Assembly (NCBI RefSeq): GCF_003334355.1
Contig: NZ_QOWP01000009.1
From: Escherichia coli
Lineage (GTDB): Bacteria; Pseudomonadota; Gammaproteobacteria; Enterobacterales; Enterobacteriaceae
Direction: 5' to 3' (one strand)
DNA length: 64,000 nucleotides
Part shown: in pieces, positions 27,501 to 30,500 of the stretch
Layout of the letters: each line of letters begins with the position of its first letter
Numbering within the stretch: the first letter of the stretch is position 1
Program-made: the position numbers

Positions 27501-30500
27501 TTCATTCACAACGACATGGAAGCGGCAATGAAGGTGAAATCCGGGCAACTGGATTATTACATCGGCGCGTGTAATACCGGTGCGGGCGCGGCATTGTCGA
27601 TTGCCATCGCGGTGATAGGCTATAACAAAAGTTGCACCATTGCCAAACCAGGCATTAAAGCGAAAGACGAGCATATCGCCAAAATGATCGCTGAAGGAAA
27701 AGTGGCGTTTGGCCTTTCCGTTGAGCACGTCGAACACGCGATTCCGATGCTGATTAACCATCTGAAATAAAAGGCACGACTATGGATCTGTATATTCAGA
27801 TTATCGTGGTGGCGTGCCTGACGGGTATGACATCGCTTCTGGCGCATCGCTCGGCGGCTGTTTTTCATGACGGCATCCGCCCGATCCTGCCGCAACTGAT
27901 TGAAGGCTATATGAACCGTCGCGAGGCGGGGAGTATCGCTTTTGGTCTGAGCATTGGTTTTGTGGCCTCGGTGGGGATCTCTTTTACCCTGAAAACCGGG
28001 CTGCTCAACGCATGGTTACTCTTTCTTCCTACCGATATCCTCGGCGTCCTGGCGATAAACAGCCTGATGGCGTTTGGTCTTGGCGCTATCTGGGGCGTGT
28101 TGATCCTTACTTGCCTGTTGCCAGTAAACCAGCTGCTGACCGCGCTGCCGGTGGATGTATTAGGTAGCCTGGGGGAATTAAGCTCGCCGGTGGTTTCAGC
28201 TTTTGCACTGTTCCCGCTGGTGGCGATTTTCTACCAGTTTGGCTGGAAGCAAAGTCTGATCGCCGCCGTGGTGGTACTGATGACCCGTGTGGTAGTCGTG
28301 CGCTATTTCCCACATCTTAACCCTGAATCCATCGAAATCTTTATTGGCATGGTGATGCTGCTGGGGATCGCGATAACTCACGACCTGCGTCATCGTGATG
28401 AAAATGACATTGATGCCAGCGGGCTTTCGGTGTTTGAAGAACGCACGTCACGGATTATCAAAAACTTACCCTATATCGCCATCGTGGGAGCATTGATTGC
28501 CGCCGTTGCCAGCATGAAGATTTTTGCTGGCAGTGAAGTGTCGATCTTCACACTGGAGAAAGCATATTCCGCAGGCGTAACGCCGGAACAATCGCAAACG
28601 CTGATTAATCAGGCGGCTCTGGCAGAATTTATGCGCGGACTGGGGTTTGTGCCGTTGATTGCCACCACCGCGTTAGCAACGGGTGTGTATGCAGTTGCGG
28701 GCTTTACCTTTGTTTATGCGGTGGGCTATCTCTCGCCGAATCCGATGGTTGCAGCGGTATTAGGCGCAGTGGTTATTTCGGCGGAAGTCTTGCTGCTTCG
28801 TTCGATCGGCAAATGGCTGGGACGCTACCCGTCGGTGCGTAATGCGTCGGATAACATCCGTAACGCCATGAATATGCTGATGGAAGTGGCGCTGCTGGTC
28901 GGTTCGATTTTCGCAGCAATTAAGATGGCGGGTTATACCGGATTCTCTATCGCGGTTGCCATTTACTTCCTCAACGAATCCCTGGGCCGTCCGGTACAGA
29001 AAATGGCGGCACCGGTCGTGGCAGTAATGATCACCGGTATTCTGCTGAATGTTCTTTACTGGCTTGGCCTGTTCGTTCCGGCTTAAGGAAGGCACCTATG
29101 AAGACGTTTCCTCTGCAAAGCCTGACGATTATTGAGGCGCAGCAAAAGCAGTTTGCGCTGGTGGATAGCATTTGTCGCCATTTCCCCGGCAGCGAGTTTC
29201 TTACTGGCGGTGATTTAGGCTTAACGCCAGGACTGAATCAACCGCGCGTTACCCAGTGTGTGGAACAGGTGCTGGCTGATGCATTTCACGCACAGGCTGC
29301 GGCGCTGGTGCAGGGCGCGGGGACTGGCGCGATTCGCGCCGGGCTGGCGGCTTTGCTCAAACCGGGGCAGCGTCTTCTGGTGCATGACGCGCCTGTTTAC
29401 CCGACGACACGGGTTATTATTGAGCAGATGGGGCTGACGCTTATTACTGTTGATTTCAATGACCTGTCGGCACTGAAGCAGGTCGTCGACGAGCAACAAC
29501 CGGATGCGGCACTGGTGCAGCATACGCGCCAGCAGCCGCAGGACAGCTACGTGCTGGCAGATGTGCTGGCAACGTTGCGCGCGGCAGGTGTTCCAGCGTT
29601 AACCGATGACAACTATGCGGTGATGAAGGTGGCTCGAATCGGCTGTGAATGCGGCGCGAATGTCTCGACATTTTCCTGCTTCAAGCTATTTGGGCCAGAG
29701 GGTGTTGGTGCAGTGGTCGGCGATGCTGATGTTATCAACCGTATTCGCGCCACGCTTTACTCCGGCGGTAGCCAGATCCAGGGCGCACAGGCGCTGGAAG
29801 TATTGCGTGGTCTGGTGTTTGCGCCAGTGATGCACGCGGTGCAGGCAGGGGTATCTGAACGGTTGCTGGCTTTGCTTAACGGTGGTGCGGTGCCGGAAGT
29901 GAAAAGCGCGGTGATTGCTAATGCGCAGTCGAAGGTGTTGATTGTCGAGTTTCATCAGCCGATTGCCGCCAGAGTGCTGGAAGAGGCGCAAAAGCGCGGT
30001 GCCTTGCCTTACCCGGTGGGTGCAGAGTCGAAATATGAAATCCCGCCGCTCTTTTATCGCCTTTCCGGAACGTTTCGCCAGGCGAATCCACAATCAGAAC
30101 ATTGTGCGATTCGCATTAACCCGAATCGCAGCGGTGAAGAGACGGTGCTGCGGATTTTGCGTGAGAGTATTGCCAGTATTTAATGCTGGATAGCACCGTC
30201 AAGCTAAATTCCGTACTGAACGGTCCCCTCGCCCCTTTGGGGAGAGGGTTAGGGTGAGGGGAACGTACGGGATGTAAAATTCAACGCGCCAGCATCGCCG
30301 GATGCGATGCTGGCGCATCTTATCCGGCCTACGGTTAATGTCTTTTATTATCAATAGTTAAGGTGATGCGATTGGCGCGGCAGAAGAGTTCGGAGACGTG
30401 CACCGGTTTGTCATTCTGATCAAAGGCGATTTTGCTGATGCGAAACAACGGTTCGCCCAGTTCGCATTTCAGCCATTTTGCCTGCGGGCGGGTGGCGGCA

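What the first reader, a model, noticed from the sequence alone, without database searches (positions are those of the whole stretch)
30184..30334. Convergent junction of the yhf and frl operons filled by palindromic repeats
The 151-bp gap between convergent yhfS and frlR holds a 60-bp G/C-rich imperfect palindrome (30211-30270) and a canonical REP unit (30297-30332). Together with the REP pair at the other end of the yhf cluster (22518-22607), the whole yhf cluster is bracketed by repeat elements. The 60-bp element is not a plain REP; its family is unassigned here.
Basis: seen in the sequence. Interest (0 to 1): 0.25.

Follow-up and report, generated by a model that had tools for sequence, protein, structure and literature searches.

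The report
Known BoxC and REP repeats
The gap between the E. coli yhfS and frlR genes is filled by two well-known dispersed repeats, a BoxC (triplex/G-quadruplex motif) copy and a REP hairpin; it is ordinary, except that in other strains a second BoxC copy lies on the far side of the yhf genes, and O157:H7 appears to have lost those genes by recombination between the two copies.

Summary
The window is E. coli K-12, and the 151-bp yhfS/frlR spacer is identical to MG1655. It holds a 60-bp imperfect palindrome (30211-30270) and a canonical REP (30297-32).

The palindrome does have a family. Its 36-nt core (30226-30261) is letter for letter TMECO no. 15 (type A mm) of Holder et al. 2015. It is also HPG1 no. 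38 of Kaplan et al. 2016, and the same motif was earlier called BoxC or PIT. Sequences similar to it occur at a median of 17 places per E. coli genome, and its 23-mer occurs exactly in distant phyla.

BoxC and REP travel with the frl operon. They are present in O157:H7 (frl+, yhf-) and absent from 1,939 frl- genomes. The REP lies 2 nt after the frlR stop codon. Published data place a Rho-dependent termination region beyond both repeats, so they are 3'-UTR hairpins, not the terminator.

One modest new point emerged. Many strains carry a second, directly repeated 43-bp BoxC after trpS. The O157:H7 junction (342 genomes) is the exact product of recombination between the two copies, which would remove the 7.7-kb yhf cluster.

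Verdict: already known, low interest.

The parts
30181..30183 (+). yhfS stop codon (TAA)
   Evidence: ORF 29098-30183; annotated as yhfS in K-12 records.
30184..30219 (.). 36-bp spacer found only in the yhf+ frl+ haplotype, between the yhfS stop and BoxC
   Evidence: It is replaced by other sequence in both the O157:H7 and the frl- haplotypes.
30211..30270 (+).
   Evidence: The outer stem is not kept in the same register in 9 other E. coli copies: 35% of cells are paired, no better than shuffles, and the flank-duplex permutation test gives p = 0.34.
30220..30262 (+). BoxC repeat unit as shared with the trpS-side copy: the 43-bp ACGGTCCCCTCGCCCCTTTGGGGAGAGGGTTAGGGTGAGGGGA, which is the recombination substrate
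   Evidence: It is identical in L128 (trpS side) and L130 (frlR side) of strain 2013C-4361. Homology with O157:H7 starts at 30220. In alignment A1 all of 30221-30261 is invariant except 30222, the loop 30236-30238 and 30243.
30226..30261 (+). TMECO no. 15 (type A mm), also HPG1 no. 38. It consists of a C block (30225-30235), loop TTT, G block 1 (30239-30248), TTA, and G block 2 (30252-30261)
   Evidence: Exact string and coordinates 3504892-3504857 (antisense) in Table 1 of PMC4666352. Midpoint 3504863 between frlR and yhfS in Table 1 of PMC5100583.
30286..30316 (.). Perfect 13-bp inverted repeat (GCGCCAGCATCGC / GCGATGCTGGCGC, 5-nt loop) that overlaps the 5' half of the REP
   Evidence: I2. 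It dominates the predicted RNA and DNA folds on both strands (DNA z about -6). The left arm occurs only at this locus.
30297..30332 (+). Single Y-type REP unit, GCCGGATGCGATGCTGGCGCATCTTATCCGGCCTAC
   Evidence: (I3). There is a weak, below-threshold Rfam hit to the REP-derived naRNA4: 31.7 bits against a gathering score of 59.5.
30335..30337 (-). frlR stop codon, 2 nt upstream (in the mRNA sense) of the REP
30146..30146 (-). Peak of a published Rho-dependent termination region for frl-direction transcripts (MG1655 3504972, + strand), antisense inside yhfS
   Evidence: Supplementary file 2 of PMC7815308: Rho score 3.64, p = 1.3e-6. The coordinate was converted using the mapping.
22518..22607 (.). 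REP pair (BIME): Y unit 22518-22551 (+) and inverted Z unit 22579-22607 (-), lying between the trpS stop and the trpS terminator hairpin (about 22632-22656)
   Evidence: This spacer has three alleles in E. coli: no repeat (B2, L139), REP pair (K-12, L140), or BoxC (L128).

Best explanation
The spacer is a composite of two known families of dispersed repeats. It lies in the 3' untranslated region of the frlABCDR operon and faces the end of the yhf operon.

(1) The 60-bp palindrome is a full BoxC element, also called PIT, TMECO type A mm, or HPG1.

(2) It is followed by one Y-type REP, placed 2 nt after the frlR stop codon.

Mechanism. Shown: both repeats encode very stable hairpins on either strand. 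Shown in published data: frl-direction transcription passes through both repeats and is stopped by Rho about 190 nt beyond the frlR stop, inside antisense yhfS.

Inferred: the hairpins therefore act as 3'-end barriers to exonucleases, as REPs do elsewhere, rather than as the terminator. Inferred: a REP this close to a stop codon is expected to lower FrlR translation by stalling the ribosome.

BoxC itself has no demonstrated regulatory activity. Its evident effect here is at the DNA level, as a 43-bp portable stretch of identity that serves as a recombination substrate. In strains that also carry a direct BoxC copy after trpS, recombination or slippage between the two copies would remove the 7.7-kb yhf cluster. 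The O157:H7 junction is exactly that product.
For: Identity:
- The core is an exact match, by string and by coordinate, to TMECO no. 15 and to HPG1 no. 38.
- The element is repeated, with a median of 17 similar places per genome across 5,426 genomes.
- The 30-mer is expected 0 times by chance in the window.
- The family alignment shows a nearly invariant 41-bp core.
- The REP has the canonical head and tail and is multi-copy.

Linkage to frl:
- O157:H7 (yhf-, frl+) keeps BoxC and REP.
- 1,939 frl- genomes join yhfS to yhfL through a 106-bp spacer. The two frl- junctions read (L004, L005) contain neither repeat.
- The 58-nt REP region, including its local left arm, is found in 3,336 genomes, always at frlR in the rows shown.

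Structure: folds have z scores of -4.8 to -6.0.

Transcription:
- A Rho termination region peaks at 3504972 on the + strand.
- The model in which Rho terminates downstream and the transcript is trimmed back to a REP or other stem-loop is described in PMC6061677.
- REPs closer than 16 nt to a stop codon lower translation (Liang et al. 2015, as summarised in PMC12306157).
- PIT elements showed no promoter or terminator activity (Hoyne and Maher 2002, as summarised in PMC4666352).

Deletion:
- Strain 2013C-4361 has both BoxC copies in direct orientation, 7,699 bp apart.
- The O157:H7 junction consists of the left flank of copy 1, one BoxC, and the right flank of copy 2. This junction is found in 342 genomes.
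Against: - No 3' end was mapped inside the spacer itself: there is no frlR entry in the Term-seq tables searched. The protective role of the hairpins is therefore inferred.
- The Rho call uses 800-nt windows and low read counts (55/33 against 66/144), so its position is approximate.
- The effect of the REP on FrlR translation is extrapolated from other genes.
- In the predicted folds, the canonical REP stem is out-competed by the adjacent 13-bp palindrome. That hairpin starts 17 nt after the stop codon, just outside the 15-nt rule.
- The yhf deletion seems to have been fixed only once (342 genomes; the three junctions shown are 100% identical). BoxC-BoxC recombination is therefore rare. The polarity, deletion rather than insertion, rests on yhf being present in the other lineages sampled, not on an outgroup.
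- Holder et al. could not detect triplex formation in vivo.
Confidence: 0.8

Rival explanations
1. BoxC plus REP form a bidirectional intrinsic terminator or insulator that stops both convergent operons within the spacer.
For: Both strands have strong hairpins. On the frl strand, a 13-16-bp GC-rich hairpin is followed by GUUGAAUUUUA, and the scan reports one terminator-like site there. Kaplan et al. noted that 6 of 16 HPG1 copies lie between convergent genes and suggested a terminator role.
Against: The scan found 1 terminator-like site against 0.8 expected in shuffles. The U tract is interrupted and starts 4 nt after the stem. PIT elements had no terminator activity when tested. A Rho-dependent termination signal lies beyond both repeats on the frl strand, which implies read-through.
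Confidence: 0.12
2. BoxC acts as a non-B DNA switch (intrastrand triplex, G-quadruplex or hairpin) that regulates transcription of frl or yhf, or replication.
For: An oligonucleotide with exactly this sequence class (type A mm) forms a stable triplex in vitro, Tm about 74 C. Kaplan et al. showed G4/hairpin behaviour for the sister motif. All 125 cross-species copies examined keep the hairpin between the C block and G block 1, with 3-4-nt loops.
Against: In vivo DMS footprinting showed no protection, and the duplex form dominates when the complementary strand is present. Published surveys found no link to gene function and no consistent distance from genes. This copy lies at the 3' ends of both operons, far from any promoter.
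Confidence: 0.1
3. BoxC is (or was) a mobile miniature element that inserted here, in the way REPs/REPINs are mobilised by RAYT transposases.
For: E. coli copies are nearly identical. Copy number per genome varies widely, from 1 to 28 places. The 23-mer occurs exactly in unrelated phyla, with species-specific conserved flanks.
Against: No target-site duplication and no clean empty site was seen. The trpS-side BoxC allele differs from the repeat-free allele by extra flanking sequence on both sides. The only BoxC-lacking frl+ variant seen is an internal deletion that leaves ACGGTCCCCTC. No transposase is known for the family, and Holder et al. found no link to mobile elements.
Confidence: 0.15
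4. The spacer is ordinary unique sequence and the palindrome arose by chance.
For: None after testing.
Against: The element is multi-copy in every one of 5,426 genomes, 0 matches are expected by chance, and the fold z scores are about -4 to -6.
Confidence: 0.01

Closest known systems
BoxC = PIT element (Hoyne and Maher 2000/2002) = TMECO (Holder et al. 2015, PMC4666352) = HPG1 (Kaplan et al. 2016, PMC5100583)
   Same: The sequence fits the pattern CCCTCNCCC-N3-6-GGGNGAGGG-N3-GGGNGAGGG exactly. It is subtype A (TTA second loop) with one mismatched triplet. It is intergenic and multi-copy. This very copy is listed by coordinate in both papers.
   Different: Nothing differs in the element itself. 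The outer 6-bp stem CCGTAC/GTACGG, which makes it look 60 bp long, is specific to this locus. The observation that two direct copies delimit the O157:H7 yhf deletion was not found in the papers searched. Holder et al. only say that recombination between distant copies could occur in principle.
REP (repetitive extragenic palindromic) elements and BIMEs
   Same: The unit at 30297-30332 has the Y-type head and tail, a bulged stem-loop, and the GTAG/CTAC end. It sits just after a stop codon, as many REPs do. The units at 22518-22607 form a typical inverted Y/Z pair.
   Different: The frlR REP is a single unit. Its 5' half is also the right arm of a perfect 13-bp local palindrome, which is predicted to out-compete the canonical REP fold.
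Deletions of gene clusters between short dispersed direct repeats (REP-, IS- or rrn-mediated)
   Same: Two identical direct repeats flank a dispensable gene cluster. The deleted genome keeps one repeat with hybrid flanks.
   Different: The repeat here is a 43-bp BoxC, shorter than IS or rrn repeats, and a structure-forming sequence. Only one fixed event was seen among 5,426 genomes.

Membership tests
BoxC / PIT / TMECO / HPG1 | Sequence pattern 5'-CCCTCNCCC N3-6 GGGNGAGGG N3 GGGNGAGGG-3' (Holder et al. 2015) | tested here: met
   30226-30261 reads CCCTCGCCCCTTTGGGGAGAGGGTTAGGGTGAGGGG. It is identical to Table 1 entry no. 15.
BoxC / PIT / TMECO / HPG1 | Listed genomic position of a catalogued copy | tested here: met
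   The motif starts at NC_000913.3 3504892 on the minus strand, matching Table 1 of PMC4666352. The midpoint 3504863 lies between frlR and yhfS in PMC5100583.
BoxC / PIT / TMECO / HPG1 | Dispersed, multi-copy and intergenic | tested here: met
   Median 17 places per genome, all 5,426 genomes. Eight other MG1655 copies fetched lie outside the annotated coding sequences and align with a nearly invariant core.
BoxC / PIT / TMECO / HPG1 | Forms an intrastrand triplex or G-quadruplex as single-stranded DNA | not testable with these tools
   Published CD/NMR for the identical type A mm oligonucleotide class gives Tm about 74 C. Only Watson-Crick hairpins can be predicted here.
REP | About 35-bp imperfect palindrome with conserved head GCCGGATG and tail CTTATCCGGCCTAC (GTAG end) | tested here: met
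   30297-30332: 1 mismatch to the 13-nt head pattern, exact tail. Stem arms 14 nt long and 86% complementary (I3).
REP | Extragenic and high copy number | tested here: met
   It lies between stop codons. The REP part of the query matches a median of 17 places per genome.
REP | Stabilises upstream mRNA, or lowers translation when closer than 16 nt to a stop codon | not testable with these tools
   The distance to the frlR stop codon is 2 nt. The rule is taken from Liang et al. 2015 as summarised in PMC12306157.
BIME (REP pair) | Two REPs in inverted orientation separated by a short linker | tested here: met
   22518-22551 (+) and 22579-22607 (-), with a 27-bp linker.
Intrinsic (Rho-independent) terminator | GC-rich hairpin immediately followed by a U tract | tested here: inconclusive
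   There is one weak site on the - strand, with 1 found against 0.8 expected, and the U tract is interrupted. Published Rho-dependent signal lies downstream.
naRNA4 (Rfam RF02564) | Score at or above the Rfam gathering threshold | tested here: not met
   31.7 bits against 59.5. The hit only reflects similarity between REPs.
MITE / transposon-derived element | Terminal inverted repeats plus a target-site duplication; filled and empty sites | tested here: not met
   No duplication was seen flanking either BoxC copy. The alleles differ by more than the element itself.

The most novel reading that the evidence does not exclude
Directly repeated BoxC copies can act as natural excision points for whole gene clusters. 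On this reading, the O157:H7 lineage lost the 7.7-kb yhfZYXW-php-yhfUTS cluster by recombination or replication slippage between two 43-bp BoxC copies. That would be a concrete, base-pair-resolved example of the BoxC-linked genome instability that Holder et al. inferred only statistically. A stronger form is that the structure-forming nature of BoxC raises the recombination rate above that of an ordinary 43-bp repeat.
Probability: 0.55. Interest if true: 0.3.

Novelty: already known. Interest (0 to 1): 0.15.

Why it matters
For annotation, the result turns an apparently unassigned 60-bp palindrome into a named and catalogued repeat, BoxC/TMECO no. 15, next to a standard REP. No new kind of element is involved.

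The side result has some value for pan-genome work. It shows, at the sequence level, that a 43-bp BoxC can be the breakpoint of a multi-gene deletion that separates O157:H7 from other E. coli. It also shows that two intergenic spots, trpS 3' and frlR 3', are interchangeable landing sites for BoxC or REP.

Two testable predictions follow. FrlR expression should be damped by the REP placed next to its stop codon. The frl operon should rely on Rho for termination, with the repeats serving as 3'-end protectors.

Tried and rejected
- Rfam scan of 29000-31500 at E <= 10: only a sub-threshold naRNA4 (REP-like) hit and noise, so no known RNA family lies in the gap.
- Promoter and terminator scan: nothing above the shuffle expectation.
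- Covariation test of the outer stem CCGTAC/GTACGG across 10 E. coli BoxC copies: not conserved (35% of cells paired, no better than shuffles). A permutation test of own against swapped flanks gave p = 0.34. I therefore treat the outer stem as local, not as part of the family. The core is invariant and carries no covariation information.
- Search for the 30-bp filler of the frl- haplotype in the window, to explain how frl was lost or gained: no match. That indel is not mediated by repeats.
- Term-seq and REP catalogue supplements searched for frlR and yhfS: only the Rho-region entry was found, with no mapped 3' end in the spacer.
- Liang et al. 2015 could not be opened directly, so it is cited through PMC12306157.
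- The 44 extra bases in strain AST19 turned out to be an inverted duplication inside yhfS, unrelated to the spacer.
- The small ORF 30199-30354 (-), 51 aa, lies almost entirely in the two repeats. I took it to be mechanical and did not pursue it.
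Full report
**1. What is in the sequence**

The window is E. coli K-12. The region 30170-30340 is identical to the reverse complement of NC_000913.3 around 3504784-3504934.

yhfS ends at 30183 on the + strand, and the frlR stop codon is at 30335-30337 on the - strand.

Inside the gap, the repeat finder reports three inverted repeats:
- a long imperfect one, with 26-nt arms that are 73% complementary;
- a perfect 13-bp one, at 30286-30298 and 30304-30316;
- the REP stem.

CCGTAC at 30211-30216 pairs with GTACGG at 30265-30270. The REP runs from GCCGGATG at 30297 to GGCCTAC at 30332. The REP pair at 22518-22607 is also real.

The spacer folds far better than shuffled sequence. 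As RNA, z = -4.8 on the + strand and -5.2 on the - strand. As DNA, z = -3.8 for the BoxC part and -6.0 for the REP part.

**2. What the 60-bp element is**

Its core, CCCTCGCCCCTTTGGGGAGAGGGTTAGGGTGAGGGG (30226-30261), is a dispersed repeat.
- blastn finds similar sequence in all 5,426 complete E. coli genomes, at a median of 17 places per genome.
- A 30-mer from it is expected 0 times by chance in the window.

The literature search led to Holder et al. 2015 (PMC4666352). They describe the pattern CCCTCNCCC-N3-6-GGGNGAGGG-N3-GGGNGAGGG. They state that it was first called BoxC in the 1990s and PIT (potential intrastrand triplex) by Hoyne and Maher in 2000.

Their Table 1 lists 23 copies in MG1655. 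Entry 15 is this exact 36-mer, type A mm, at 3,504,892-3,504,857 on the antisense strand. I verified that the motif starts at 3,504,892 on the minus strand of NC_000913.3.

Kaplan et al. 2016 (PMC5100583) list the same copy as HPG1 no. 38, with midpoint 3504863, 74 nt from frlR and 56 nt from yhfS.

The family is therefore assigned, and this copy was already catalogued twice.

**3. Extent of the family unit**

I aligned ten E. coli type-A copies: this one, the trpS-side copy of another strain, and eight MG1655 copies.
- A 41-bp core at 30221-30261 is invariant apart from one base of the left flank, the first loop and one G-block position.
- The flanks have only a weak consensus (...GCnCGGACGG / AACAGnCCGGCAC...).
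- The outer stem CCGTAC/GTACGG is not kept in the other copies (35% of cells paired, no better than shuffles).
- Own-flank duplexes are not stronger than swapped-flank duplexes (p = 0.34).

The "60 bp" is thus a BoxC plus a local extension.

**4. Wider distribution**

The hits came from Alpha-, Beta-, Gamma- and Deltaproteobacteria, and also from metagenome-assembled genomes labelled Desulfotomaculum and Methanomicrobiaceae.

All 125 copies examined have a C-rich block upstream that pairs with the first G block through a 3-4-nt loop. Flanks are species-specific.

Both papers had already reported broad conservation. I therefore treat this as confirmation, with the caveat that metagenome bins can be contaminated.

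**5. Which operon the repeats belong to**

A 651-bp query across the junction separates three haplotypes.

| Haplotype | Example | Genomes | Junction |
|---|---|---|---|
| yhf+ frl+ | K-12 | 2,864-2,953 | full junction with BoxC and REP |
| yhf- frl+ | O157:H7 | 342 | trpS stop, 15 bp, BoxC, REP, frlR |
| yhf+ frl- | CE10, L3Cip3 | 1,939 | yhfS joined to yhfL by 106 bp; no BoxC or REP in the two junctions read |

The REP region with its local left arm is found in 3,336 genomes, at frlR in every row shown. BoxC and REP therefore travel with frl. They form its 3' untranslated region.

**6. How it most likely works at the RNA level**

The REP starts 2 nt after the frlR stop codon. REPs closer than 16 nt to a stop codon have been shown to reduce translation of the upstream gene (Liang et al. 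2015, as summarised in PMC12306157). That this applies to FrlR is an inference.

A complication is that the 13-bp perfect palindrome out-competes the canonical REP stem in every predicted fold. That hairpin begins 17 nt after the stop codon.

The consensus scan finds no convincing intrinsic terminator: one weak site against 0.8 expected. PIT elements had no promoter or terminator activity when tested.

Adams et al. 2021 (PMC7815308, supplementary file 2) list a Rho termination region peaking at 3,504,972 on the + strand of MG1655. This is the frl direction, antisense inside yhfS, and corresponds to window 30146. The Rho score is 3.64 and p = 1.3e-6.

That position is beyond both repeats. It fits the model in which Rho terminates downstream and exonucleases trim the transcript back to a stable stem-loop, often a REP (PMC6061677).

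No 3' end in the spacer itself was found in the tables searched. These operons may be too weakly expressed in LB for one to be detected.

**7. What BoxC does at the DNA level here**

A 140-nt query made of the trpS 3' end plus BoxC matched 1,866 genomes, far more than the 342 O157-type genomes. In the others, for example strain 2013C-4361, the spacer between trpS and yhfZ carries a BoxC instead of K-12's REP pair.

The same strain also has the K-12-type BoxC and REP after yhfS. The two copies are direct repeats, identical over 43 bp (ACGGTCCCC...GAGGGGA) and 7,699 bp apart.

The O157:H7 junction consists of:
- the 15-bp left flank of the trpS-side copy,
- one BoxC,
- the right flank of the frlR-side copy.

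This is the exact product expected from homologous recombination or slippage between the two copies. Because yhf is present in the other lineages sampled, including divergent ones (92-95% identity), I read the event as a deletion. No outgroup was available to confirm this.

The three O157-type junctions shown are 100% identical, so the 342 genomes look like a single historical event.

Holder et al. showed statistically that TMECO loci are unusually variable. On mechanism they said only that recombination between distant copies could occur in principle. I found no paper in the library that describes this deletion.

A second kind of instability is visible in strain MLI121. There, 51 bp of BoxC and its right flank are deleted, leaving ACGGTCCCCTC joined to AACGCGCC, while the REP is kept.

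**8. The other end of the yhf cluster**

The spacer between the trpS stop and the trpS terminator has three alleles:
- no repeat (phylogroup B2, 159-bp intergenic region);
- the Y/Z REP pair (K-12);
- a BoxC-containing segment.

It reflects two intergenic hot spots for repeats at operon 3' ends, not a property of yhf.

**9. Verdict**

The element is already known and the junction is ordinary for E. coli. The only addition is the base-pair-level account of the O157:H7 yhf deletion between two BoxC copies. This is a new instance of a known kind of event.

Noticed in passing
L128:1581-1700 compared with window 22484-22632 and L139:551-575: The spacer between the trpS stop codon and the trpS terminator has three alleles in E. 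coli: no repeat (B2 strain C 691-04A), a Y/Z REP pair (K-12), or a BoxC-containing segment. About 1,500 yhf+ genomes carry the BoxC allele (1,866 matches minus the 342 O157-type).
   Followed up: yes
L003:3986-4115 (O157:H7), L128 and L130 (strain 2013C-4361): The O157:H7 junction trpS-BoxC-REP-frlR is the exact hybrid of two direct 43-bp BoxC copies that lie 7,699 bp apart in yhf+ strains. This implies that the whole yhf cluster was deleted by recombination between BoxC copies. The junction is found in 342 genomes, apparently from one event.
   Followed up: yes
L127:370-410 (strain MLI121): BoxC is truncated by a 51-bp internal deletion (ACGGTCCCCTC joined to AACGCGCC), while the REP and both genes are intact. 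This is an example of the small intergenic deletions reported at TMECO loci.
   Followed up: partly
L126:296-340 (strain AST19); window 30105-30130: There is a 44-bp insertion inside the 3' end of yhfS. It is an inverted duplication centred on the local palindrome TGCGATTCG...CGAATCGCA, and the gene is annotated as frameshifted. It is unrelated to BoxC or REP.
   Followed up: partly
window 30286-30316: A perfect 13-bp inverted repeat (GCGCCAGCATCGC / GCGATGCTGGCGC) re-uses the inner half of the REP as its right arm. It out-competes the canonical REP fold in every prediction. The left arm is unique to the frlR locus and looks like the central part of an inverted REP.
   Followed up: partly
window about 30146 (-) and about 26672 (-); MG1655 3504972 and 3508446 (+): Published Rho-dependent termination regions lie antisense to yhfS and to php. 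This indicates that frl-direction transcription enters the yhf cluster in antisense and is cleared by Rho.
   Followed up: partly
L006-L125 (genome-contig scan): The exact 23-mer GGGGAGAGGGTTAGGGTGAGGGG occurs in many unrelated taxa. About 30 copies are in Pseudomonas sp. dw_612, with a long conserved left flank (CGATGTAGCTC..AACA.CTCGGTCAG). It also occurs in bins labelled Desulfotomaculum and Methanomicrobiaceae. Why the sequence is so conserved across phyla remains unexplained.
   Followed up: partly
L003:4947-5732: frlD is annotated as a pseudogene (internal stop) in O157:H7 strain TX 376-2. The frl operation may therefore be decaying in the lineage that also lost yhf.
   Followed up: no
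window 9628-9640, 12137-12149, 15354-15366, 46182-46194: There are REP-head-like matches with one mismatch and no exact REP tail nearby in the scan. They may be degenerate or different-type REPs.
   Followed up: no
L138:61-176 (fimH-gntP spacer of MG1655): Another BoxC copy is followed, about 37 nt downstream, by what looks like the start of a REP (GCCAGATGCGA). BoxC-plus-REP composites may therefore recur.
   Followed up: no
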